From assembly GCF_013122565.1 (NCBI RefSeq), contig NZ_CP053258.1: a stretch of 64,000 bases of DNA. One strand, given 5' to 3'. The position numbers were made by a program, and so were the translations under genes. This DNA comes from Escherichia coli (lineage in GTDB: Bacteria > Pseudomonadota > Gammaproteobacteria > Enterobacterales > Enterobacteriaceae). Of this stretch, positions 22,153 to 42,758 are shown in pieces. Under the pieces are notes generated by a model, which was given only the letters and a program-made list of their open reading frames with translations, did not search any database and was not told the DNA's origin. Position 1 is the first letter of the stretch, and each line of letters begins with the position of its first letter.

Positions 22153-23028
22153 ATGGACTTTTTTACGTTATTTTCACCGGATGGGGTCATGCTGGAAACA
22201 AACGTGGTATGTATCGTTATCGCGTTAATGTTTCTTTATACCTTTGTGGGGATATGCGCGGGATTTGGCGGTGGTTTAACCACTATGCCGCTCGTCACGT
22301 TAATGCTCCCCGTAAAAATGGCAACTCCGCTCTCGGTGATTGTCGGCACCGCGACCGCCTTGTACGCCACCTGGCTGTCACGTAAAGAAACGGATTGGCG
22401 ATCGGCAATGGTACTGATTATTTTCTCGTTTCTGGGAATACCCGTCGGTTTATATGCGCTGTCATATTTACCCGACCATTTTATGAAAGTGGGCTTAGGC
22501 GGATTCCTTATCCTCTACTCGTTTTATAGTATGTTTATTCCACGCCTGCCGATTTATGACCGCAACTGGATCGCCGCACCTATAGGCGCAGTAGCTGGCG
22601 CATTAGGCGCGGCGTTCTCAACCAACGGACCGCCGATGGTTATCTACGGTATGCTGCGTAACTTAGGCCCGGCGGCATTTCGCGGCACTCTGAACGCTTT
22701 CTTCACCGCAAACAACATCGCGGTGATCGGCGGACTGGCGACCAGCGGAATTTTGACTGTTTCTATCTTTAAACTGGTGCTGTTTTGTATTCCCACCATG
22801 ATCCTCGGTTCACTGGTTGGACAATATGTGCATAAACGCATTTCAGTCAAAGTGTTCCGTGTGATGGTCTTTTTGTTGCTGATTGCCTCCGGTTCTATGT
22901 TGATAAAAGGCGCGCTGGGAATTCCCGCTGCTGCCGCGCTTCTGCCTCCTTTTACCTTGTTAGTTATACTGCAACTGGCATTTGGTAAAAAAGTGGCGGC
23001 AATCCGCCGGGCTGAAGAAAGTAAATAA
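22153..23028 (+). CDS. TauE/SafE-like (sulfite/sulfonate exporter family) membrane protein
   Basis: 291-aa polytopic protein with Gly-rich TM helices; RBS aggaaa upstream; lies between yihR and yihQ, where I recall no gene in K-12. Confidence 0.6.
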   Translation: MDFFTLFSPDGVMLETNVVCIVIALMFLYTFVGICAGFGGGLTTMPLVTLMLPVKMATPLSVIVGTATALYATWLSRKETDWRSAMVLIIFSFLGIPVGLYALSYLPDHFMKVGLGGFLILYSFYSMFIPRLPIYDRNWIAAPIGAVAGALGAAFSTNGPPMVIYGMLRNLGPAAFRGTLNAFFTANNIAVIGGLATSGILTVSIFKLVLFCIPTMILGSLVGQYVHKRISVKVFRVMVFLLLIASGSMLIKGALGIPAAAALLPPFTLLVILQLAFGKKVAAIRRAEESK

Positions 23029-28116: not shown

Positions 28117-28809
28117 ATGAAAAAGATTAATGCAATAATTTTATTATCTTCTCTGACCTCTGCCTCAGTATTCGCTGGCGCATACGTCGAAAACAGGGAG
28201 GCATATAATCTCGCCTCCGATCAGGGCGAGGTTATGCTACGTGTGGGTTATAACTTCGATATGGGCGCGGGTATTATGTTAACCAATACCTATAACTATC
28301 AGCGAGAAGATGAACTAAAACATGGATATAACGAAATCGAAGGTTGGTATCCTTTATTTAAACCAACCGATAAATTAACCATCCAGCCCGGTGGCTTAAT
28401 TAATGATAAGAGTATCGGTTCGGGTGGTGCAGTTTATCTGGATGTTAACTACAAATTTACTCCGTGGTTTAACCTGACGGTGCGTAATCGTTTTAACCAT
28501 AATAACTACAGCTCAACCGATTTAAACGGTGATCTGGATAATAATGACAGCTACGAGATTGGCAACTACTGGAACTTTATTATTACCGATAAGTTCTCAT
28601 ATACCTTTGAACCGCATTATTTTTATAACATTAATGATTTCAATAGCAGCAATGGTACGAAGCATCACTGGGAAATCACTAACACCTTCCGTTATCGCAT
28701 TAATGAGCACTGGCTGCCCTATATTGAATTGCGCTGGTTAGACCGCAACGTCGAGCCGTACCACCGTGAGCAAAACCAGATTCGTATCGGGACGAAGTAT
28801 TTCTTCTGA
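28117..28809 (+). CDS. ompL: Outer membrane porin OmpL
   Basis: Signal peptide MKKINAIILLSSLTSASVFA and terminal aromatic residue (..GTKYFF). Confidence 0.85.
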   Translation: MKKINAIILLSSLTSASVFAGAYVENREAYNLASDQGEVMLRVGYNFDMGAGIMLTNTYNYQREDELKHGYNEIEGWYPLFKPTDKLTIQPGGLINDKSIGSGGAVYLDVNYKFTPWFNLTVRNRFNHNNYSSTDLNGDLDNNDSYEIGNYWNFIITDKFSYTFEPHYFYNINDFNSSNGTKHHWEITNTFRYRINEHWLPYIELRWLDRNVEPYHREQNQIRIGTKYFF

Positions 28810-28820
28810 TGTAAAAATGT

Positions 28821-28850
28821 AAAAAGCCGCTGATATTTAAGCGGCTTTTT
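28821..28850 (+). terminator. Rho-independent terminator after ompL
   Basis: aaaaagccgctgatatttaagcggcttttt stem-loop with T-run. Confidence 0.8.
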
Positions 28851-28989
28851 ACACAGATATTCACAATATAAATAACTCTCCATAATTATATAACTACGTT
28901 GATTATAAAATATTCCTCGTCCTCTCTATCAAAGCCATTGACTACTCGGTAAGATCTTTTCCACTGCAACACTCACAAGGAATGAGAAA

Positions 28990-29838
28990 ATGGAAAAGAA
29001 ATTTTTTATGGATTGGGATAATGAAATCCCGCAAGAAGAATTTATTAACAATATTTTAGCCGATGAAGACCTACCCAAACTTCGCTCTCTGATTATTGGT
29101 CGTTGGGGGGAGTGCTGGGATGAGGAAAGTTGCCAATCGATAATCGACATGTTTGTTGAACATGCTGAACGCTTCACGCATCTTGAATCCCTGTATGTCG
29201 GCGATATGGAAAGTGATGAGTGTGAGATTTCGTGGATAAAACAAGGGGATTATTCTCGTCTGTATGCTGCGCTGCCGAATCTGAAAAAGCTGACAATTAA
29301 AGGTACTCAGGGCCTGGAACTGGGAGAAATCGCCCACGACAAGCTTGAGCATCTGGAAATTATCTCTGGCGGTACGCCGTGCGACGTGTTCGCTTCATTG
29401 CAAAATTCCCACCTGCCTGCGTTAAAAACACTTATCGTTTATATTGGCGTTGAGAATTATGGTTTTGATGCATCGCTGGATATCGTGATGAAGCTGGCGT
29501 TGAAATCCCTCTTCCCGAGCCTGACGCATCTTGGCCTGGTGAACAGCGAAGAGCAAAACGAAATCGTCCGCCGCGTGCTGGAAAGCGATATTCTGCCACA
29601 ACTGGAAGTGCTGGAACTTTCCTTGGGTACACTCACCGACGAAGGCGCGGAGTCTCTTCTCAAACATGCCGATCGCCTTAGCCATCTGAAACTGCTGGAT
29701 TTGCATCATCATTACCTTACAGAAAAAATGCAGGAAAAATTGCAGAAAACGCTACCGATCGAAGTGGATGTCTCATACAGAAATAAACCGCGTACTTATA
29801 GTGATAGAGTTTATATGACTCCCATGTTTACCGAATAA
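28990..29838 (+). CDS. Acidic cytoplasmic leucine-rich-repeat-like protein
   Basis: 282 aa; repeated LxxLxxLxL segments (LPNLKKLTI, LEHLEII, LPALKTLIV, LTHLGLV, LPQLEVLEL, LSHLKLLDL); RBS aaggaatgag. Confidence 0.5.
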   Translation: MEKKFFMDWDNEIPQEEFINNILADEDLPKLRSLIIGRWGECWDEESCQSIIDMFVEHAERFTHLESLYVGDMESDECEISWIKQGDYSRLYAALPNLKKLTIKGTQGLELGEIAHDKLEHLEIISGGTPCDVFASLQNSHLPALKTLIVYIGVENYGFDASLDIVMKLALKSLFPSLTHLGLVNSEEQNEIVRRVLESDILPQLEVLELSLGTLTDEGAESLLKHADRLSHLKLLDLHHHYLTEKMQEKLQKTLPIEVDVSYRNKPRTYSDRVYMTPMFTE

Positions 29839-29898
29839 AGTGCCTATAACAGGAGATGGCAACATCTCCTGTTATTTATCACAGAAAAGGAATTCTTC

Positions 29899-30885
29899 GT
29901 GATTACGCTAATTTGTCATCCTGAAAGCAAACGCACATTTTATTTTTTCCAGGCCGCGTCACGCTTGCAGGAACATATCAACGTAGTGAGCTATGATCAA
30001 GCACTTACCCTGCCCTTAAATAAAGGCATGGTAAAAATTGATCCCCCCTTACATCAGGAAACAGATATTCGCTTAATTAATACGGTTAGCCAAAACTATA
30101 TTACTTTTTTACAAAAAATGGCTAACCGAAGAGAAATCCGTTTTATTAACTCGCCAGAAGGTATCATTCATCTTCTGGATAAACGCCACTGTAAGCAACG
30201 ATTAATTGAACACGCGATCCCGACACCGCCAATATTAGCGGATGATATCCGTAGCTACGATCAACTGATCGCCTGTATGCGCAGCGAAAAGGTTTATCGC
30301 GTGTTTATTAAGCCGAATTTCGGATCAGGGGCCGCCGGGGTGCTGGCATTGAGTTTACATCCCGGCGATAACCGCCAGGTGCTTTATTGCGCCATCCAGG
30401 TTGCAGGTGACAGGCTGGTGAACAGTAAACATATTATCCGCTATGAAAACAGCGATGATATTACGTTGATTGTGAATGCTATTTTACAACAAGAAAATAT
30501 TATCGAATGCTGGCTGGCAAAAGCCAGAGTGGGCAATAAAAGCTACGATTTACGAATAGTATACGTTAATGGCGAAATCGTCTGGCGGGTTGTCAGAACA
30601 TCATCACAGCCGATCACCAATTTGCATCTACAAAATGAAGCTATCCGTTTTGCCGATCTTAATTTACCCGCAGAAAAAGTTACTGAAATTGACACGCTTT
30701 GTCTCAACGCCATGAAACTCTACCCGGACGTACACATTGCCGGGATTGACGTATTACTCACGCAAAACTTAACCCCCTATATTATCGAAATTAACGGCCA
30801 GGGCGATCTTATTTATCAGGACACCTGCGAACAAAACATAATTTATCAACGCCAGATTCAGGTAATGAGAGAACACCATGTATAA
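29899..30885 (+). CDS. ATP-grasp ligase (RimK-like)
   Basis: GTG start with RBS; KPNFGSGAAGV and ...YIIEINGQGDL resemble ATP-grasp motifs; 8-nt overlap with next ORF. Confidence 0.55.
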   Translation: MITLICHPESKRTFYFFQAASRLQEHINVVSYDQALTLPLNKGMVKIDPPLHQETDIRLINTVSQNYITFLQKMANRREIRFINSPEGIIHLLDKRHCKQRLIEHAIPTPPILADDIRSYDQLIACMRSEKVYRVFIKPNFGSGAAGVLALSLHPGDNRQVLYCAIQVAGDRLVNSKHIIRYENSDDITLIVNAILQQENIIECWLAKARVGNKSYDLRIVYVNGEIVWRVVRTSSQPITNLHLQNEAIRFADLNLPAEKVTEIDTLCLNAMKLYPDVHIAGIDVLLTQNLTPYIIEINGQGDLIYQDTCEQNIIYQRQIQVMREHHV

Positions 30886-31750
30886 CGTAACTGACGAAGT
30901 ACCAGAAAATACCCGCACGGCAATCCATTCCTGCGATGGCGAAATCAATATGAATGATTTGATTGCCAGGGAAGCGAACGTTCTGTTTGTGGTGCTTGAT
31001 TCCCTGCGTTTTGATATTGCGTTTCAGGAACAAGAGGCGGGCAATACGCCGAACATTAACCGCTATGGTCGCTGGATAAAGTGCGAAGCCGCTGGCAATT
31101 TTACCTGGCCTTCGCATCATTCGATGTTTTCTGGTTTTATGCCTAAGCCACTGGAAGCCGCACCAGGTCATTCAATGCTCTTTTTTCCCAAAGATATTGG
31201 CTTAGGGCGTTTAGGACCAAAAAATGCGTTCGCATTCAGTGAAGAGACGTGGATTAAGGGGATGGAAAACAAAGGTTACCGCACTATCTGCGTGGGTGGC
31301 GTCTCCTTTTTTAATAACCGTTCAGGGATGGGAAAAGTGTTCCCGGCGATGTTTAAAGAGAGTTACTGGTATCCTAATTTCTCCTGCACGGTGAAAGAGA
31401 GCATGGATAATCAGCTCACCTTAATTAACAAAAAGGTGAACGCTGAACAGCCGCTGATGATGTATATCAATATCGACACCATTCATTATCCGAATCACTT
31501 TTATATTGAAAATGCCAAACCTGGCGATACGGTAGAAACGCATGCCGCTGCCCTACATTATATTGATGCCAGAATCGATAAACTTTTTGATATCTTTCGG
31601 CAAACCAGGAGGGAGACGTTAGTTATTCTCTGTTCCGATCATGGCACCTGCTACGGGGAAGACGGTAAATATTTCCACAGTTTTAACCATCCGATTGTGA
31701 ATACCGTACCCTATTTTCACTTTGTGTTAGACGGCAAAACCCATGAATAA
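30878..31750 (+). CDS. Alkaline-phosphatase-superfamily metalloenzyme (sulfatase/phosphotransferase-like)
   Basis: N-terminal VLDSLRFD and C-terminal LCSDHGTCYGEDG metal-binding-type motifs. Confidence 0.5.
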   Translation: MYNVTDEVPENTRTAIHSCDGEINMNDLIAREANVLFVVLDSLRFDIAFQEQEAGNTPNINRYGRWIKCEAAGNFTWPSHHSMFSGFMPKPLEAAPGHSMLFFPKDIGLGRLGPKNAFAFSEETWIKGMENKGYRTICVGGVSFFNNRSGMGKVFPAMFKESYWYPNFSCTVKESMDNQLTLINKKVNAEQPLMMYINIDTIHYPNHFYIENAKPGDTVETHAAALHYIDARIDKLFDIFRQTRRETLVILCSDHGTCYGEDGKYFHSFNHPIVNTVPYFHFVLDGKTHE

Positions 31751-32981
31751 TGAATCGATTTATCAGCAATATATGTACAGTTACCCGCATAAGACCGCTT
31801 ATCGGGAATTAAACAATATTGCTTTTGCAGATGTGAAGTCGCGTATTTACGAGCATAAAACACATCTCTATATTCATATGCCTTTTTGCCAGAGCCGCTG
31901 CGGGTTTTGTAATCTTTTTACCTGCACGGGCGCAGACAATGCCTTTATCGACAACTACATAGAGGCGATTATCGTCCAGGCCCAGCAAATGCAACTTGCG
32001 CCTGTAGACTGGGCCAGTTTTACCATTGGCGGCGGTACGCCACTGCTGCTTAATGTCGGGCAACTGTCGCGATTGTTTCGCGGGGTGTTTGACGAATTAC
32101 AGGTCGATGCGCAGATTTTTAAGGCCATTGAAACATCGCCTTCCGATACCTCTGCCGAAAAAGTCGCGTTGTTGCGCCAGCTTGCGGTAAACCGTGTCAG
32201 TATTGGTGTTCAGAGTTTTAACGATCTGGAACTTGCCACATTACACCGCCGCCATAGCACTAAAAATGCCCATCGGGCGCTGGAGCTACTGCGCACGGGT
32301 AATTTCCCGATACTCAATATTGATATTATTTACGGTATTCCCGGTCAAACAGCCGCAAGTTTATTGGCGTCGCTTAATCAGGCATTAGATTATCAACCTG
32401 ACGAACTGTTTCTGTACCCACTGTATAACATGCCTCGCCAGCCGGATATGTATAGCCTCTATATTGAAGCCCGCGATCGCTTATTGCATGAAGGTTATAC
32501 GCAAACGTCAATGCGCCGTTTTGTGCGGGTGAATAATGATTCGGCGGTTGAAAGTTGTGGCTTTGAAAATTCGCTGGCGCTTGGCGCGGGCGGGCGCAGT
32601 TACCTGGGCAATTTACATTACTGCACGCCGTGGTCGCAAAACCAGCCTGCATCGCGACAAATTGTCGCGGATTTTATCGCCCGACAAGATAAAACCCTTA
32701 TTAACCACGGCTATGTGCTTTCACAAGCAGAAATGAAGCGGCGTTTTGTTATCAAGAATCTCTTTTTCTATAAAGGGCTTTCGTTACGTGATTATCAGCG
32801 CCAGTTCTCCTCTGAGGTATTAAGCGATTTTCCCCTGCTGGGCGATTTTATCAAACAAGATTATTGCCACCAGCAGGATAATCGCATTCTGCTCACCGCG
32901 CAGGGTTTGGCGCTTTCGGACCAGCTTGGCCCGCTGTTTATTTCCCCGGAAGTTCGCAGGCTGGAGACGCATAAACGATGA
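31743..32981 (+). CDS. HemN-family radical SAM protein (paralog of coproporphyrinogen oxidase; HemW / class C methyltransferase-like)
   Basis: LYIHMPFCQSRCGFCNLF (CX3CX2C) and FTIGGGTPLL, parallel to LYVHIPFCHKLCYFCGC / LHWGGGTPTYL in the canonical hemN of this window. Confidence 0.7.
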   Translation: MNNESIYQQYMYSYPHKTAYRELNNIAFADVKSRIYEHKTHLYIHMPFCQSRCGFCNLFTCTGADNAFIDNYIEAIIVQAQQMQLAPVDWASFTIGGGTPLLLNVGQLSRLFRGVFDELQVDAQIFKAIETSPSDTSAEKVALLRQLAVNRVSIGVQSFNDLELATLHRRHSTKNAHRALELLRTGNFPILNIDIIYGIPGQTAASLLASLNQALDYQPDELFLYPLYNMPRQPDMYSLYIEARDRLLHEGYTQTSMRRFVRVNNDSAVESCGFENSLALGAGGRSYLGNLHYCTPWSQNQPASRQIVADFIARQDKTLINHGYVLSQAEMKRRFVIKNLFFYKGLSLRDYQRQFSSEVLSDFPLLGDFIKQDYCHQQDNRILLTAQGLALSDQLGPLFISPEVRRLETHKR

Positions 32982-33832
32982 CGCTCAAGCAGATCCAGAC
33001 GCTGATTTATCGCGGCGAGATAAAGTCGTGTAATTATCGCTGTGGCTATTGTCCGTTTCATAAACAAGACCGCAATGATAAGCAGCAGGATGAAGCGGCA
33101 TTATGGCGCATGGTTGAGCATTTACCGGCGCTGGGTTCACCGTTAAATGTGTTGATTACACCCTACGGCGAAGCATTGCGTTATCGGTATTATATGGCGG
33201 CGATGGCGGAAATAAGCCGTTATTCCCATGTCCAGGCGGTGGGTATTCAGACCAACGCCTCGTTTAATTTATCCTCGTTGATAGCGACTTTTCAGCACTC
33301 TCAGGGCGATTTAGCAAAGCTGCGGCTGTGGTGTTCATTTCATCCTTCCCAGGTCAGTAAAGAAGTTTTCCTTAAACAGATACTGGCAATTAAGGACGCG
33401 GGGATTAATTGTTCTGTGGGGGCCGTCGCCAACGTAACCGACTACGACACATTCCAGTGGTTACGCGCGCATCTTCCTTCCGATATCTATTTCTGGCTAA
33501 ACGCCAATGAGCGCGATAAAAGGCCCACCAGCGACGAAAGAAATAGCCAGTTTCAGTTGCTGGACCCGCTTTATCCTTTGGAAACCAGCCTCTGGCCTGC
33601 CAATGTTGCGTTTTGTCTCGGCGGCAAAAAGAGCGTGTTTATGAATGCCGAAGGCGATCTCTTCGCCTGTAATATCAGCAAAATTAAAATCGGCAATTTA
33701 TATCAGCAGCAACTTTCATCTCCAGCCTGTATGGCCAGGCACTGCCACTGTTATCTGGCTTATCATCTGCGTCAGGATATCCCGGCCCTCTCACAATTTG
33801 ATGCTGAACGCTGTTTTCGGATCTTCCCTTAA
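32978..33832 (+). CDS. Radical SAM protein with C-terminal Cys-rich (SPASM/twitch-like) region
   Basis: N-terminal SCNYRCGYCPF (CX3CX2C); C-terminal FACN...PACMARHCHC cluster; ATGA overlap with upstream ORF. Confidence 0.55.
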   Translation: MTLKQIQTLIYRGEIKSCNYRCGYCPFHKQDRNDKQQDEAALWRMVEHLPALGSPLNVLITPYGEALRYRYYMAAMAEISRYSHVQAVGIQTNASFNLSSLIATFQHSQGDLAKLRLWCSFHPSQVSKEVFLKQILAIKDAGINCSVGAVANVTDYDTFQWLRAHLPSDIYFWLNANERDKRPTSDERNSQFQLLDPLYPLETSLWPANVAFCLGGKKSVFMNAEGDLFACNISKIKIGNLYQQQLSSPACMARHCHCYLAYHLRQDIPALSQFDAERCFRIFP

Positions 33833-34530
33833 TGATCTGCCGGTTAATCGCGCTCGATTTAGATGGCACATTGCTGAACAGCAAGAAGATGATTTCCCCT
33901 GCGTCGGTTTCGGCACTGCAAAGCGCACAACAGGCAGGCGTGAAGATTATTCTCGCCACCGGGCGTTCGCACAGCGAAGCCCTGCCTTATTACCAGCAAT
34001 TGCAGTTAACCGGGCCGATGATTTGCTGTAACGGCAGCTATCTTTATCATCCGTATCAGCGGCAAATAGTGAATCCGCAACCGCTTAATATTCAGCAGGT
34101 GGAGAAACTGCGAGCATGGTTTTCACTACACTCACTCCAGCCAATTTTGTATACCCACGATGAGTTAACTTTGCAGATAAGCCTGGTACATCGCAAGGCT
34201 TCGTTATTGCGCCAGGCTGAGGAATTTGCCCGGCAAGAATTATCGCTGGCCTGTAGCTGGTCCTGGCATCATCAACTGGATATTACACAGGCGGGGTGTG
34301 AGAAAGGCAAAAGTCTGGCCTGGTATGCACAGCAGCAAAATATCGCTCTGGATGAAATCATCGCCTTTGGCGATAACGATAATGATGCGGGGATGTTGCA
34401 GATGGTAGGGAAAGGTATTGCGATGGGCAATGGTAGCTTTCTGGCAAAAGCCAGCTCTAACTGCGTTATCGGTCACAACAACACTGACGCGATTGCGGAT
34501 TTTCTTTATGCGCAGGGGGTCAGTTCATGA
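33832..34530 (+). CDS. HAD-superfamily (Cof-like) phosphatase
   Basis: Motif I IALDLDGTLLNS; C-terminal FGDNDNDAGM; start overlaps upstream stop by 1 nt. Confidence 0.7.
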   Translation: MICRLIALDLDGTLLNSKKMISPASVSALQSAQQAGVKIILATGRSHSEALPYYQQLQLTGPMICCNGSYLYHPYQRQIVNPQPLNIQQVEKLRAWFSLHSLQPILYTHDELTLQISLVHRKASLLRQAEEFARQELSLACSWSWHHQLDITQAGCEKGKSLAWYAQQQNIALDEIIAFGDNDNDAGMLQMVGKGIAMGNGSFLAKASSNCVIGHNNTDAIADFLYAQGVSS

Positions 34531-34602
34531 CGCATCTTATCAGGTCTACAAAAGCAAAAAACCTGCCATCGCTGGCAGGTTTTTTATGACTAAAAAACGA
34601 AA

Positions 34603-36426
34603 TTAATCGTCTTTCGGTGCGCGGTTAGCGCGACGACGATCGTTTTCCGTCAGGTGACGTTTACGAATACGGATAGAGGTCGGAGTCACTTCTACCAGTT
34701 CGTCATCATCGATGAACTCCAGAGCTTGTTCCAGAGTCATGCGGATAGGCGGAACCAGAACAACGGCTTCGTCAGTACCGGAAGCACGCATGTTGGTCAG
34801 TTTCTTACCGGTCAGGCAGTTTACAGTCAGGTCGTTAGAGCGGCTATGAATACCGATAATCTGACCTTCGTAAACTTCTGCACCGTGACCGAGGAACAGC
34901 TTACCGCGATCCTGCAGACCGAACAGCGCGAACGCGACCGCTTTACCCTGACCGTTAGAGATCAGTACGCCGTTCTGACGCTGACCCACTTCACCCGGAC
35001 GTACGTCGTCGTAGTGGCTGAAGGTGGAGTACAGCAGACCAGTACCGGAAGTCATGGTCATGAACTCAGAACGGAAGCCAATCAGACCACGGCTTGGGAT
35101 CACGTAGTCGAGACGTACGCGGCCTTTACCGTCTGGATTCATGTTTTTCAGGTCGCCTTTACGTTCGCCCAGCGCCTGCATTACAGAACCCTGATGCTGT
35201 TCTTCAACGTCCAGAGTCACGTTTTCATACGGCTCTTGTTTACGACCGTCGATTTCACGGAAGATAACTTTCGGACGGGATACCGCCAGTTCGAAACCTT
35301 CACGACGCATGTTTTCGATCAGAACAGACAGGTGCAGTTCGCCACGACCAGAAACGCGGAACGCATCGGCGTCTTCGGTTTCTTCTACGCGCAGCGCAAC
35401 GTTGTGTACCAGTTCTTTGTTCAGACGATCCAGGATCTGACGAGACGTTACGAACTTACCTTCTTTACCGCAGAACGGCGAGGTGTTAACGCAGAAGAAC
35501 ATAGAAACGGTCGGCTCATCAACGGAGAGTGCCGGCAGCGCTTCAACGTTTTGCGTGTCGCAAACGGTGTCAGAAATGTTCAGTTCGCCCAGGCCCGTGA
35601 TCGCCACGATATCGCCAGCTTCCGCCAGGTCGGTTTCGATACGTTCCAGACCGAGGTGGCCCAGCACTTTACCGACTTTCGCGTTACGGGTTTTGCCTTC
35701 GCTATCGATGATAGTGACCTGCTGGTTCGGCTTCACTTTACCGCGCTTGATGCGGCCAATGCCGATAACGCCAACATAGCTGTTGTAATCGAGCTGAGAA
35801 ATCTGCATCTGGAACGGACCGTCAAGGTCAACGTCCGGCGCAGGAACGTGATCAACAATCGCCTGATACAGCGGGGTCATGTCTTCAGCCATATCTTCGT
35901 GGTCCAGACCCGCGATACCGTTCAGCGCAGAAGCGTAAACGATCGGGAAGTCCAGCTGCTCGTCGGTCGCGTCGAGGTTAACGAACAGGTCGAATACCTG
36001 ATCCACAACCCAGTCAGGACGCGCGCCAGGGCGGTCAACTTTGTTGATAACAACAATCGGCTTCAGGCCGTAAGCAAACGCTTTTTTGGTTACGAAGCGC
36101 GTTTGCGGCATCGGGCCGTCAAATGCGTCAACCACCAGCAGCACTGAGTCTACCATGGACATTACACGTTCAACTTCACCACCGAAGTCGGCGTGCCCCG
36201 GGGTATCAACGATGTTGATACGGTAATCATTCCATTTGATAGCGGTGTTTTTCGCGAGGATGGTAATCCCACGCTCTTTCTCCAAATCGTTGGAGTCCAT
36301 CACGCGCTCTTGGGTTTCGGCACGAGAGTCGAACGTACCGGATTGTTGGAGCAGCTTGTCTACCAGGGTGGTTTTACCATGGTCTACGTGCGCGATGATG
36401 GCGATATTACGCAATTTTTCGATCAC
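34603..36426 (-). CDS. typA: Ribosome-dependent translational GTPase BipA/TypA
   Basis: 607 aa; G1 [12 protein letters not shown]-like architecture. Confidence 0.9.
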
Positions 36427-41384: not shown

Positions 41385-42758
41385 TTAAATCACCCGAGAG
41401 AACTGCTGCATCCGCGCTTTCTGGCGCAGATAGGTATCAAAGCACATGCAAATGTTGCGGATCAGCAAGCGACCTTTCGCCGTCACCTGTATTCCCTTCT
41501 CATCCACATCCACCAGCCCATCTTTTGCTAATGGGGCGAGCAGCTTGAGATCTTCCGCAAAGTAATCAGCGAAGTGCAAATCCCACTGTTTCTCAATAGG
41601 GGCGTAATCCAGACGGAAGTTGCAGATGAGCGACTTAATCACATCGCGGCGAATACAGTCATCACGCGTTAGCGCAATACCACGCCACAGCGCGTTGCCT
41701 TGTTCATCCACTTGCTGATAGTACTGCTTCAACTCTTTCTGGTTCTGCGCGTAGCAGTCGCCAATCATGCTGATGGCGGAAACGCCCATCCCCAGCAGAT
41801 CGGTATCGCCCTGAGTGGTGTAGCCCTGGAAGTTACGATGCAGCACGCCTTCACGCTGGGCCACCGCCAGCTCGTCATCCGGACGGGCAAAGTGATCCAT
41901 ACCGATAAACTGATAGCCCGATTGCGTCAGGAAGGCGATGGTTTCCTGCAGGATATCGAGTTTTTGCTGCGGACTCGGCAGGTCAGCATCTTTGATTTTG
42001 CGCTGAGCAGCAAAAATGGTCGGCAGATGCGCATAGTTAAAGACGCTCAGACGGTCAGGGTTTAGCTCCGCCACGCGTTTCAGGGTAAAGGCGAAACTTT
42101 CCGGCGTCTGTTTCGGCAGGCCGTAAATCAGGTCGATGTTGGTGGAGGTAAAGCCAATCTCACGCGCATGGTTAAGCAGCGCAAAGATAAACTCTTCATC
42201 CTGCTCGCGGTTAACCAGACGTTGCACTTCTTTGTTGAAGTCCTGCACGCCCATACTCAGGCGATTAAAGCCCTCGGCGCGTAAATGATCGAGTACATCC
42301 AGTTCGATTTCCCGCGGATCGACTTCGATCGAAATCTCCGCATCGGCATTGAACTGGAAGTTTTCGCGCAGCAGCTTCATCAGGCGGCTGATTTGCGCTT
42401 TATTAAGATACGTCGGCGTTCCGCCGCCCCAGTGCAGCTGGCTGACGTGACGCCCGGCGAACAGCGGTGCACGATGGACGATTTCTTGCTCCAGCGCGTC
42501 CAGATACTGATCGGCCTTGTGCTGCTGGCGAGTAACAATCTTATTACAACCGCAGAAGTAACAAAGCTTATGGCAGAACGGGATATGTACGTAGAGAGAT
42601 AATGGACGCTCAGGATAGCGCGCCACGGCTTGTAAAAACGCCTGTTCGCCGAAGTCTTCTGAAAACTCCAGCGCGGTCGGGTACGAGGTGTATCGTGGCC
42701 CGGAATAGTTATATTTCTGGATCAGGGCCAGATCCCAGTCGATTTGCTGTACAGACAT
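41385..42758 (-). CDS. hemN: Oxygen-independent coproporphyrinogen III oxidase
   Basis: Radical SAM CHKLCYFCGC and GGGTP motifs; 457 aa from MSVQQIDWD. Confidence 0.9.
   Translation of the reverse strand: MSVQQIDWDLALIQKYNYSGPRYTSYPTALEFSEDFGEQAFLQAVARYPERPLSLYVHIPFCHKLCYFCGCNKIVTRQQHKADQYLDALEQEIVHRAPLFAGRHVSQLHWGGGTPTYLNKAQISRLMKLLRENFQFNADAEISIEVDPREIELDVLDHLRAEGFNRLSMGVQDFNKEVQRLVNREQDEEFIFALLNHAREIGFTSTNIDLIYGLPKQTPESFAFTLKRVAELNPDRLSVFNYAHLPTIFAAQRKIKDADLPSPQQKLDILQETIAFLTQSGYQFIGMDHFARPDDELAVAQREGVLHRNFQGYTTQGDTDLLGMGVSAISMIGDCYAQNQKELKQYYQQVDEQGNALWRGIALTRDDCIRRDVIKSLICNFRLDYAPIEKQWDLHFADYFAEDLKLLAPLAKDGLVDVDEKGIQVTAKGRLLIRNICMCFDTYLRQKARMQQFSRVI

What the first reader, a model, noticed from the sequence alone, without database searches (positions are those of the whole stretch)
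31743..32981. Second HemN-family radical SAM gene in the same window as canonical hemN
The window holds canonical hemN (41385-42758) and a 412-aa paralog with the same PFC-x3-C-x2-C and GGGTP signatures but otherwise divergent sequence. Established knowledge: HemN-like proteins outside heme biosynthesis act as heme chaperones (HemW) or class C radical SAM methyltransferases. Its position inside the accessory operon argues for a non-heme role.
Basis: partly seen in the sequence, partly recalled or inferred. Interest (0 to 1): 0.5.

Follow-up and report, generated by a model that had tools for sequence, protein, structure and literature searches.

The report
HemN-like enzyme in LRR-tail cassette
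The second HemN-like gene is real but is not a heme enzyme: it belongs to an already catalogued, functionally unstudied gene cassette whose first protein always ends in a free glutamate, which suggests the enzymes jointly modify that protein's tail.

Summary
ORF 31743-32981 (+) encodes a 412-aa radical SAM protein with PFCQSRCGFC and GGGTP. Canonical hemN lies at 41385-42758 on the minus strand.

The gene is not HemN, HemW or ChuW. It passes only the curated NCBIfam model "STM4012 family radical SAM protein" (494 bits, cut-off 380). RefSeq already gives it that name in 157 of 5426 complete E. coli genomes. No paper on its function was found.

It is gene 4 of a terminator-bounded, translationally coupled six-gene operon (28990-34530):
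- STM4015, a leucine-rich-repeat (LRR) protein
- STM4014, a RimK/LysX-like ATP-grasp
- STM4013, an NPP-like alkaline-phosphatase-superfamily enzyme
- STM4012, the target
- STM4011, a SPASM/twitch radical SAM
- a Cof-type HAD phosphatase

The same domain set recurs in about 90 loci (Enterobacteriaceae, many Clostridia, unassigned metagenome contigs). Gene orders are shuffled, and non-orthologous HADs are fused to different partners.

New here: the STM4015 module always sits at the protein's C-terminal end, and 143 of 150 diverse cluster representatives end in Glu.

Best inference, untested: the ATP-grasp ligates something to that terminal Glu, and STM4012, using HemN-type two-SAM radical chemistry, helps tailor the tail. 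Family and context are secure; the mechanism is about 0.35-0.45.

The parts
31743..32981 (+). Target: STM4012-family HemN-like radical SAM protein, 412 aa. CX3CX2C at nt 31881-31910; GGGTP at 32028-32042; family-specific N-terminal motif YQQYMYSYPHKTAY at 31761-31802; SMRRF at 32508-32522; GGRSY at 32589-32603; KRRFVI at 32736-32753.
   Evidence: (NF006067 493.9 bits, cut-off 380).
28990..29838 (+). STM4015-family LRR protein, 282 aa, ending ...RVYMTPMFTE-COOH (tail nt 29812-29835). Proposed protein substrate or scaffold of the cassette.
   Evidence: NF038076, 324.7 bits; AF2 pLDDT 93.7 with an RNI/NLR-type LRR fold and the last 2 residues at low confidence; crystal structure of a homolog, PDB 2RA8; invariant C-terminal Glu.
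29899..30885 (+). STM4014-family ATP-grasp ligase, 328 aa, related to RimK, LysX, MptN, CofF and YheC/D. Overlaps the next gene by 8 nt.
   Evidence: NF038074, 331 bits; RimK family 9e-13, MptN 3e-11, LysX 1e-8, CofF 3.5e-8; ATPgrasp_YheCD 6.5e-6; TTL 0.028.
30878..31750 (+). STM4013/SEN3800-family alkaline-phosphatase-superfamily enzyme, 290 aa. Invariant D41, T76 (FTWPSH), D254-H255 (SDHG) and further His/Asp residues. Reads as NPP/phosphotransferase-like with a Thr nucleophile. Overlaps the target by 8 nt.
   Evidence: NF038075, 352 bits; weak matches to the metal sites of sulfatases, NPP and EptC. The comparison with the NPP motif is from memory.
32978..33832 (+). STM4011-family radical SAM protein, 284 aa. 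Cluster Cys C18/C22/C25, plus invariant C213, C231, C251, C256, C258 (C-x12-G-x4-C, a SPASM/twitch-type auxiliary cluster). Start overlaps the target's stop by 4 nt.
33832..34530 (+). Cof-type HAD-IIB phosphatase, 232 aa (DLDGT motif I, GDNDND motif IV). Sixth cassette member.
   Evidence: TIGR00099, 186.7 bits, cut-off 137. Fused to STM4011 in most Clostridia and in L096. A non-orthologous HAD-IA is fused to STM4014 in L095.
28817..28854 (.). Bidirectional terminator-like hairpin after ompL. Upstream boundary of the operon. A weak sigma-70-like site lies at 28860-28889.
34555..34586 (.). Bidirectional terminator-like hairpin between the HAD gene and convergent typA. Downstream boundary of the operon.
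41385..42758 (-). Not part of the cassette.
   Evidence: (TIGR00538, 808 bits).

Best explanation
The gene encodes an STM4012-family HemN-like radical SAM enzyme. It is one of six co-inherited components of a self-contained cassette: STM4015, STM4014, STM4013, STM4012, STM4011 and a HAD phosphatase.

Shown:
- It is neither HemN, HemW nor ChuW by curated models and diagnostic residues.
- It keeps the [4Fe-4S]/SAM-I site and the Tyr (Y43, equivalent to HemN Y56 and NocN Y34) that stacks on the second SAM.
- It is always linked to an LRR protein whose module sits at the C-terminal end of its protein and almost always ends in Glu.

Inferred:
1. The RimK/LysX-like ATP-grasp STM4014 activates a carboxylate of the terminal Glu of STM4015 and ligates an amine-bearing, probably phosphorylated, partner to it.
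2. STM4012 cleaves SAM-I to a 5'-deoxyadenosyl radical, which makes a methylene radical on SAM-II, as in HemN and class C methylases. That radical either transfers a C1 unit to, or abstracts H from (possibly decarboxylating), the Glu tail or the moiety tethered to it.
3. The SPASM/twitch enzyme STM4011, the NPP-like STM4013 and the HAD phosphatase complete the tailoring by phosphodiester and phosphate removal.

No amidase is encoded, so the modified protein itself may be the end product.
For: Family membership: NF006067 493.9 bits against a cut-off of 380. RefSeq uses the same name.

Operon: overlaps of 8, 8, 4 and 1 nt, bounded by two terminator hairpins.

Linkage:
- Order 4015>4014>4013>4012>4011 in essentially all sufficiently long loci among L002-L086.
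- Shuffled orders in L089, L094 and L096.
- No other conserved neighbour.

HAD is integral: Cof-type fused to 4011, a HAD-IA fused to 4014 in L095, free-standing in E. coli.

Tail:
- 87 of 87 close homologs end [PA]-M-[LIMF]-T-E.
- 143 of 150 representatives of 50%-identity clusters end in Glu, with S/T/G/A at -2 and 33% acidic residues upstream.
- The module is always C-terminal, behind N-terminal extensions of up to 727 aa that include TPR, internalin-type LRR, KOW/NusG-like and WGR domains.
- A second tail type (RY[VI]AV[SG]E) lies in the same cassette in L091, L094 and L095. Only the terminal Glu is common to both types.
- The AF2 model has its last 2 residues at low confidence (pLDDT about 46).
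- Three tandem STM4015 paralogs share one enzyme set in L072.

ATP-grasp: its nearest named relatives are RimK, MptN, LysX and CofF. By established knowledge these act on a terminal glutamyl or hydroxyglutaryl carboxylate; RimK on S6 and TTL on tubulin are cited in PMC4431377.

STM4011 falls in the SPASM/twitch clade, which is rich in peptide and protein modifiers.

STM4012 residues: Y43, H45, E130, R169-170, D194 and GGGTP are conserved. The role of the Tyr in SAM-II stacking is from PMC12871812.
Against: - No experiment and no complex model links any enzyme to the tail. The terminal Glu could be structural or a binding determinant of this LRR family.
- One family member (L088) stands alone with no cassette nearby.
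- L072 shows no ATP-grasp on its short contig.
- STM4014 scores far below the RimK and LysX cut-offs (48 against 143 bits) and has no sequence match in the PDB.
- The best structural neighbours of STM4011 include small-molecule enzymes (BlsE, MoaA, DesII).
- The HADs resemble sugar-phosphate or nucleotide phosphatases, which also fits a small-molecule pathway.
- Only 2 of 4 NocN residues that hold the SAM-II methionine are kept, and the HemN F310/Q311 SAM-II segment is missing. Two-SAM binding is therefore inferred, not shown.
Confidence: 0.45

Rival explanations
1. The cassette makes or salvages a small phosphorylated metabolite, such as a modified sugar-phosphate or nucleotide-linked compound. 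STM4012 methylates or otherwise modifies that free small molecule. STM4015 is only a regulator, scaffold or sensor, not the substrate.
For: - The NPP-like enzyme plus sugar-phosphate/nucleotidase-like HADs suggest free phospho-metabolites.
- Pfam gives weak 'sugar-transfer associated ATP-grasp' hits for STM4014.
- Known class C enzymes act on small molecules as well as peptides (PMC10114718).
Against: - It does not explain why the LRR module is always C-terminal and ends in Glu in 143 of 150 diverse representatives.
- It does not explain why the LRR protein is as tightly linked as the enzymes across shuffled gene orders.
- It does not explain why LRR paralogs multiply next to one enzyme set.
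- No transporter, regulator or riboswitch is conserved with the cassette.
Confidence: 0.3
2. STM4012 is a heme-handling protein: a HemW-like chaperone or a ChuW/HutW-like anaerobic heme-degrading methyltransferase.
For: - General HemN-family similarity: HemW model 140 bits, ChuW/HutW 119.5 bits.
- The HemN_C domain is present.
- Like HemW, it lacks HemN's fourth Cys.
Against: - It is below both curated cut-offs (205.4 and 400).
- The HNxxYW heme motif of HemW (PMC10114718) is absent; that segment is deleted.
- It has an N-terminal domain that HemW lacks.
- About 90 contexts contain no heme uptake or heme biosynthesis gene.
- E. coli has its own hemW.
Confidence: 0.05
3. STM4012 is a redundant coproporphyrinogen III dehydrogenase, that is, a true second HemN.
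For: - Full-length colinearity with HemN, including an N-terminal motif resembling HemN's.
- Y56 and H58 equivalents are conserved.
- Older database names call homologs 'coproporphyrinogen III oxidase'.
Against: - 26% identity, and 123 bits against a cut-off of 325 on TIGR00538.
- Lacks C71 and the F310/Q311 segment.
- Embedded in a non-heme cassette present in only 2.9% of E. coli, while hemN is universal.
- Most hosts are Clostridia. By general knowledge many of these lack heme synthesis; this was not tested here.
Confidence: 0.03
4. The cassette is an anti-phage or conflict system. The LRR protein would act as a sensor, as in NLR-type proteins, and the radical SAM enzymes would make a toxic or signalling nucleotide.
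For: - The LRR fold resembles NLR and ribonuclease-inhibitor LRRs.
- It is a low-GC variable island present in 2.9% of E. coli.
- Some homologs carry WGR, TPR or KOW fusions.
Against: - No PADLOC model matches any of the six proteins, apart from one marginal 21-bit hit on the target.
- No NTPase, nuclease or other effector is linked.
- In the loci with a named source genome the cassette lies among chromosomal housekeeping genes rather than defence islands.
Confidence: 0.07

Closest known systems
HemN (oxygen-independent coproporphyrinogen III dehydrogenase; PDB 1OLT)
   Same: Radical SAM core with CX3CX2C and GGGTP. Conserved equivalents of Y56, H58, E145, R184 and D209. A HemN-like N-terminal motif and the HemN_C domain. 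Colinear over the full length.
   Different: 26% identity. Fails TIGR00538 (123 against 325 bits). No fourth Cys (C71 is N57 here). The F310/Q311 segment is missing. Has family-specific YPHK, SMRRF, GGRSY and KRR[FY]VI motifs. The genomic context is non-heme.
Class C radical SAM methylases (NocN/NosN, TbtI, ChuW, Jaw5, C10P)
   Same: HemN-like fold. The second-best solved relative by sequence is NocN (9P2U, E 3e-21). The SAM-II-stacking Tyr is conserved. NocN R153 and D196 equivalents are conserved.
   Different: NocN Y96 and S225 equivalents are not kept (variable and Phe). The target has an N-terminal domain that NocN lacks. No thiopeptide, polyketide or heme genes lie nearby. ChuW/HutW model scores 119.5 against 400 bits. 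Methyl transfer is untested.
HemW / RSAD1 heme chaperones
   Same: Lacks HemN's fourth Cys. The core is 28% identical to E. coli HemW.
   Different: No HNxxYW motif. Has an N-terminal domain. Below the TIGR00539 cut-off (140 against 205). E. coli carries a separate hemW.
RimK-S6, TTL-tubulin and LysX-LysW (amino-group carrier protein) systems
   Same: A RimK/LysX-related ATP-grasp is encoded next to a protein with an acidic tail ending in a conserved terminal Glu. In the LysW system further enzymes tailor the tethered group; that statement is from established knowledge.
   Different: The partner is a 280-aa LRR module, not S6, tubulin or a 54-aa zinc-ribbon LysW with an EDWGE tail. The tailoring enzymes are two radical SAMs, an NPP-like enzyme and a HAD, not LysZ/Y/J/K. 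No releasing amidase is present. STM4014 is far below the RimK and LysX cut-offs. Ligation is untested.
Scaffold-peptide (pearlin/PEARL) and peptide-derived cofactor pathways (3-thiaglutamate, ammosamide, mycofactocin, PQQ)
   Same: Concept: chemistry is built on, or appended to, the C-terminus of a ribosomal product. SPASM radical SAM enzymes are involved in MftC and PqqE (PMC12715798 for pearlins).
   Different: Here the 'scaffold' is a folded LRR protein. The ligase is an ATP-grasp, not a tRNA-dependent PEARL. No protease, RiPP recognition element or exporter is linked.

Membership tests
STM4012 family radical SAM protein (NCBIfam NF006067) | Whole-protein HMM score at or above the curated cut-off (380 bits) | tested here: met
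   493.9 bits, aligned 7-409 of 412. RefSeq gives the same name to orthologs in E. coli.
STM4012 family radical SAM protein (NCBIfam NF006067) | Occurs in the STM4011-STM4015 cassette | tested here: met
   All four partner families pass their cut-offs in the window. The same linkage is seen in about 90 loci.
Radical SAM superfamily | CX3CX2C cluster motif, glycine-rich SAM motif and a PF04055 match | tested here: met
   C49/C53/C56; GGGTP at 96-100; PF04055 4e-18.
HemN / CPDH (TIGR00538) | HMM score at or above 324.95 bits | tested here: not met
   123 bits. The window's real hemN scores 808.
HemN / CPDH (TIGR00538) | Fourth Cys of CX3CX2CXC (C71), and the F310/Q311 SAM-II segment | tested here: not met
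   N57 replaces C71. The HRNFQGY segment aligns to a gap in both MAFFT and BLASTP alignments. The roles of these residues are from memory of Layer et al.
HemN / CPDH (TIGR00538) | N-terminal domain and Y56/H58 | tested here: met
   YQQYMYSYPHKTAY aligns with HemN's IQKYNYSGPRYTSY. Y43 and H45 are conserved.
HemN / CPDH (TIGR00538) | Converts coproporphyrinogen III; complements a hemN mutant | not testable with these tools
   Needs genetics or an enzyme assay.
HemW heme chaperone (TIGR00539) | HMM score at or above 205.4 bits | tested here: not met
   140.3 bits.
HemW heme chaperone (TIGR00539) | HNxxYW motif (PMC10114718) and no N-terminal HemN domain | tested here: not met
   The motif region is deleted and an N-terminal domain is present.
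ChuW/HutW (TIGR04107) | HMM score at or above 400 bits, and a heme-uptake operon context | tested here: not met
   119.5 bits. No heme genes in any context. No residue-level comparison was made because no ChuW sequence was in hand.
Class C radical SAM methylase (functional class) | Binds two SAM molecules: stacking Tyr plus SAM-II contacts | tested here: inconclusive
   The Tyr (Y43) is conserved. Of NocN's Y96, R153, D196 and S225, only the R and D equivalents are kept.
Class C radical SAM methylase (functional class) | Transfers a SAM-derived C1 unit, producing SAH as well as 5'-dA | not testable with these tools
   Needs anaerobic reconstitution.
RimK/LysX-type protein C-terminal Glu ligase system (applied to the cassette) | ATP-grasp enzyme of the RimK/LysX family | tested here: inconclusive
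   Nearest named families are RimK (9e-13), MptN, LysX and CofF, but all are far below cut-off (48 against 143 bits). Pfam gives YheCD 6.5e-6 and TTL 0.028. No PDB sequence hit.
RimK/LysX-type protein C-terminal Glu ligase system (applied to the cassette) | Partner protein with a conserved free C-terminal Glu on an acidic tail | tested here: met
   87 of 87 close homologs and 143 of 150 diverse homologs end in Glu. The module is always C-terminal. 33% acidic residues upstream.
RimK/LysX-type protein C-terminal Glu ligase system (applied to the cassette) | ATP-dependent ligation to that Glu | not testable with these tools
   Needs biochemistry or MS.
Known anti-phage defence systems (PADLOC-DB 2.0) | Match to a defence-protein model | tested here: not met
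   Five proteins give no hit. The target gives one marginal 21-bit hit to candidate PDC-M51A.

The most novel reading that the evidence does not exclude
The STM4011-4015 + HAD cassette is a previously undescribed protein-C-terminus-templated radical SAM pathway. An ATP-grasp ligase loads a (phospho-)amine onto the invariant terminal Glu of an LRR protein. A HemN-like two-SAM enzyme (this gene) and a SPASM/twitch enzyme then remodel it, with phosphodiesterase and phosphatase trimming. The result would be a new post-translational modification or protein-borne cofactor, present in gut Clostridia, Salmonella, some E. coli and probably Bacteroides (PDB 2RA8). It would also be the first HemN-like enzyme shown to act on a folded protein's tail.
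Probability: 0.35. Interest if true: 0.8.

Novelty: new variant of a known kind. Interest (0 to 1): 0.55.

Why it matters
HemN-like radical SAM enzymes are widely mis-annotated as coproporphyrinogen oxidases, and several clades remain uncharacterised (PMC10114718). This clade is present in Salmonella, a minority of E. coli and many gut Clostridia, and it has a solved partner structure (2RA8), yet no function was found for it in the literature searched.

The invariant C-terminal Glu of the partner LRR protein turns 'unknown function' into a cheap, direct experiment: co-expression plus mass spectrometry of one tail peptide in E. coli.

A positive result would define a new protein modification and a new substrate class for HemN-type two-SAM chemistry. 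A negative result would redirect the search to a small-molecule product.

For annotation, the gene should not be called a coproporphyrinogen oxidase.

Tried and rejected
- **Known defence system:** PADLOC gave no real hits.
- **Extra conserved partners** (transporter, regulator, precursor peptide, protease): clustering of neighbour ORFs of at least 90 aa within 4 kb of about 80 loci found nothing in more than 12 loci. Shorter ORFs were not examined.
- **Riboswitch or T-box upstream** that would name a ligand: none in 7 Clostridial loci or in the window.
- **Literature:** STM4011-4015, SEN3800, 2RA8, Q64V53 and several keyword combinations returned only incidental mentions. The Iyer et al. 2009 amidoligase survey (PMC3268129), which might discuss this ATP-grasp, is not held. 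The supplement of the HemN-like review is not held.
- **Sequence search of solved structures:** no hit for STM4014 or for the radical SAM part of STM4011.
- **Auxiliary cluster in STM4012:** the Cys of LHFCTPY and GCGG are not kept in the window's own protein or in distant homologs, so this was dropped.
- **STM4011 as a formylglycine maturase for STM4013:** rejected because STM4013 has a Thr (FT-x-PSH), not a C/S-x-P-x-R motif.
- **ChuW residue-level comparison and a full HemN-family phylogeny:** Curated HMM cut-offs were used instead.
- **Complex model of STM4014 with the STM4015 tail:** not possible.
Full report
**1. Observation**

The ORF listing and translation confirm a 412-aa ORF at 31743-32981 (+).
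- PFCQSRCGFC is at aa 47-56 and GGGTP at aa 96-100.
- Pfam finds Radical_SAM (4e-18) and a weak HemN_C domain (6e-4).
- Canonical hemN is at the stated coordinates but on the minus strand. It scores 808 bits on TIGR00538.
- The two proteins are 26% identical and colinear from residue 5 to 391.
- Against E. coli HemW, only the radical SAM core (42-262) aligns, at 28% identity.

**2. What the gene is**

Among NCBIfam's curated models the protein passes only NF006067, 'STM4012 family radical SAM protein' (493.9 bits, cut-off 380). It fails HemW (140 against 205), HemN (123 against 325) and ChuW/HutW (119.5 against 400).

RefSeq already annotates the same gene and its neighbours with these names. 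The 5.8-kb island occurs in 157 of 5426 complete E. coli genomes at about 94.8% identity, always between ompL and typA.

The family is therefore catalogued, but I found no paper on its function. The only hits were an incidental positive-selection list and a sigma-54 ChIP site inside STM4013 in Salmonella.

**3. Residue-level comparison**

This uses an alignment of 67 family members with HemN, HemW and the NocN fragment.

Kept:
- Y43 and H45 (HemN Y56 and H58). The Tyr stacks on the adenine of the second SAM in HemN and NocN (PMC12871812).
- The cluster Cys residues and GGGTP.
- E130 (HemN E145), the R of HRRH (HemN R184, NocN R171), R of NRVS (NocN R153), and D194 (HemN D209, NocN D196).

Lost:
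- HemN's fourth Cys (N57).
- HemN's HRNFQGY segment, which contains F310/Q311.
- HemW's HNxxYW heme motif (PMC10114718).
- NocN Y96 and S225 equivalents.

Special to the family:
- An invariant N-terminal Y-x-Y-[SA]-Y-P-H-K motif that resembles HemN's N-terminal domain and is absent from HemW and NocN.
- Basic motifs SMRRF, GGRSY and KRR[FY]VI.

The protein is thus a distinct HemN-like clade with HemN-type architecture. Two-SAM chemistry is likely but not proven.

**4. The operon**

Six + strand genes run from 28990 to 34530, with overlaps of 8, 8, 4 and 1 nt. They are bracketed by bidirectional terminator hairpins at 28817-28854 and 34555-34586.

All components pass their curated cut-offs:
- STM4015 (NF038076)
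- STM4014 (NF038074, an ATP-grasp whose nearest named relatives are RimK, MptN, LysX and CofF)
- STM4013/SEN3800 (NF038075, alkaline-phosphatase superfamily)
- STM4012 (the target)
- STM4011 (NF038073)
- a Cof-type HAD

Island GC is 0.43-0.50 against 0.52-0.55 in the flanks. The flank typA-glnG is at most 98.7% identical to any complete E. coli genome. In the best-matching genome ompL abuts typA with nothing between them. The island is therefore an accessory insertion at a variable junction.

**5. Conservation of the cassette**

STM4012 homologs are about 70% identical in Salmonella and Superficieibacter, then drop to about 45% in many Clostridia.

A scan of 100,044 species genomes with an STM4015 alignment found 242 genomes. 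Eighty loci were fetched: one Enterobacteriaceae and the rest Clostridia.
- In essentially every locus long enough, the order 4015-4014-4013-4012-4011 is kept on one strand.
- No other gene family is shared by more than 12 loci.

In most Clostridia STM4011 is a protein of about 500 aa whose C-terminal half is a Cof-type HAD (Pfam Hydrolase_3; DxDGT present).

More distant versions from metagenomes:
- They shuffle the order: 4013-4012-4015-4011 in L089, 4014-4013-4012-4015-4011::HAD in L096, and 4014-4015-HAD-4013-4012-4011 in L094.
- In L095 a different, HAD-IA nucleotidase-like domain is fused to the ATP-grasp.

Shuffled order and independent fusions of non-orthologous phosphatases are strong evidence that all six activities serve one process, and that a phosphate-removal step is essential.

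**6. The partner proteins**

*STM4015.* The model has pLDDT 93.7 and is an RNI/NLR-type LRR horseshoe. It has a solved homolog, PDB 2RA8 (B. fragilis Q64V53, structural genomics; E 6e-71), that ends ...YSYPMITE.

*STM4011.* It has the CX3CX2C motif plus five further invariant Cys residues in a C-x12-G-x4-C...C-x4-C-x-C pattern. Its model (pLDDT 91) is closest to the SPASM/twitch enzymes BlsE, SkfB, MoaA, SuiB, EpeE, anSME and PqqE.

*STM4013.* It keeps a complete set of invariant Asp/His residues and a Thr in FT-x-PSH, plus SDHG. I read this, from memory of NPP and EptA active sites, as a bimetal phosphodiesterase or phosphotransferase with a Thr nucleophile, not a formylglycine sulfatase.

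**7. The key new observation**

Every one of 87 close STM4015 homologs ends exactly in [PA]-M-[LIMF]-T-E.

A profile search of 1.84 billion cluster representatives found 912 clusters at E<=1e-30. Among the best 150:
- 143 end in Glu. Most of the seven exceptions look like truncated fragments or frameshifts.
- Position -2 is S/T/G/A in 127 of 131.
- Position -6 is Tyr in 102 of 131.
- The preceding 22 residues are 33% Asp/Glu.

Two tail types exist (...YPM[LIFY]TE and ...RY[VI]AV[SG]E). Both occur inside the cassette, so the only shared residue is the terminal Glu.

The module always lies at the C-terminal end of its protein. In 136 of the 150 the profile match ends within 15 residues of the C-terminus; in the other 14 it ends 16-72 residues short, and 12 of those still end in Glu. 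N-terminal extensions reach 727 aa and carry TPR, internalin-LRR, KOW/NusG-like or WGR domains.

In the AF2 model the last two residues have low confidence while the aromatic part of the tail packs on the LRR.

One genome has three tandem STM4015 paralogs, all ending in PMITE, in front of one enzyme set.

**8. Mechanistic inference**

Shown: the linkage, the domain identities and the invariant free Glu.

Inferred:
- *The ligase step.* The characterised relatives of the ATP-grasp all activate a terminal glutamyl-type carboxylate. RimK acts on the S6 C-terminal Glu and LysX on the γ-carboxyl of the LysW C-terminal Glu. CofF and MptN act on glutamyl or hydroxyglutaryl tails. This is established knowledge; RimK and TTL are cited in PMC4431377. 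I therefore propose that STM4014 ligates an amine to the terminal Glu of STM4015.
- *The phosphate steps.* The recurrent NPP-like enzyme and HAD suggest that the ligated partner, or an intermediate, carries a phosphodiester or phosphate that is later removed.
- *The target's step.* STM4012 would generate the SAM-II methylene radical, as in HemN and class C methylases (PMC10114718). That radical would either add a C1 unit or abstract H from the tethered group or from the Glu side chain. A Glu side chain is itself a propionate, the group HemN decarboxylates. I offer that analogy only as a lead.
- *The end product.* No amidase or protease is linked, so the modified protein may be the end product.

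I put the Glu-ligation step at about 0.55 and STM4012 acting on the tail at about 0.35-0.45.

**9. Rivals and caveats**

A small-molecule pathway with STM4015 as regulator or scaffold remains plausible (0.3). STM4011's top structural match is a nucleoside-sugar decarboxylase, and the HADs look like sugar-phosphate or nucleotide phosphatases.

Heme chaperone/degradation, redundant HemN and defence-system readings are each disfavoured by tested features.

Caveats:
- One stand-alone STM4015-like gene has no cassette nearby (L088).
- One short contig lacks the ATP-grasp (L072).
- STM4014 is only remotely RimK-like.
- Nothing here is experimental.

**10. Verdict**

The gene is an ortholog of an already named family of unknown function, so the finding as written is only moderately novel.

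The added value is twofold: the six-component definition of the cassette, and the invariant C-terminal Glu of its LRR protein. Together they yield a concrete, cheaply testable hypothesis for a new substrate class of HemN-type enzymes.

Noticed in passing
window 22153-23028 (+): A 291-aa multi-pass membrane ORF lies between yihR and yihQ in the sulfoquinovose operon. It has no NCBIfam hit. The gene is absent from the closest complete E. coli genome (LHM10-1), where yihR and yihQ are adjacent. By eye it looks like a TauE/SafE-type sulfite/sulfonate exporter; this was not verified.
   Followed up: partly
window 28809-34603 (ompL-typA junction): This junction varies between strains. It is empty in strain LHM10-1 and holds the STM4015-HAD island in 157 of 5426 genomes. 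From memory, K-12 has yihLMN here; this was not checked.
   Followed up: partly
window 34550-34618 (-): Near-threshold Rfam match to the enterobacterial sRNA STnc370 (53.2 bits; gathering score 54; E 8e-6). It overlaps the typA 3' end and terminator hairpin.
   Followed up: no
window 33832-34530 (+): The cassette's HAD is short (232 aa). It matches the Cof/PRK10530 profiles in two pieces, skipping about 30 profile positions in the cap region. Catalytic motifs DLDGT and GDNDND are intact.
   Followed up: partly
L006 10001-11479: This STM4012 homolog (492 aa) contains an exact internal tandem duplication of about 45 aa (FSDCGFGSCLALGCGGRSYLGNLHFCTPYAITRNDCLKELEQFENT twice). This may be an assembly artefact or a real duplication.
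   Followed up: no
L002 11265-12810 compared with L003 11265-12809; L002 12868-13530 / L003 12867-13490: Two contigs carry the identical STM4012-family protein P0024, which NCBI names from Hungatella sp. They differ in two ways. The STM4011::HAD fusion is split into two ORFs in L002 but intact in L003. The gene downstream encodes a proline-rich repeat protein (PPQGPPPWGPPPRP units) with a different repeat number in each contig.
   Followed up: no
L072 1116-3756; protein P0121: Three tandem STM4015 paralogs, all ending in PMITE, precede STM4013 and STM4012 in a Defluviitaleaceae MAG. P0121 (561 aa) appears to contain two STM4015-like modules in tandem, judging from its length and profile score; this was not examined.
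   Followed up: partly
L027 7897-9772 (-): A group II intron (RF02005, 137 bits; RF00029, 54 bits) lies just upstream of the cassette in Lachnospiraceae bacterium M18-1.
   Followed up: no
Salmonella LT2 STM4013 (literature): A sigma-54 ChIP-chip site is reported inside STM4013, in antisense orientation to the ORF (PMC3844500). Its relevance to cassette regulation is unknown.
   Followed up: no
L089 1784-2872; L096 3253-4350; PDB 2RA8: In some lineages STM4015 carries an N-terminal extension of about 80-90 aa. Pfam calls it a WGR domain in L089. The 2RA8 protein from B. fragilis has a similar extension.
   Followed up: partly
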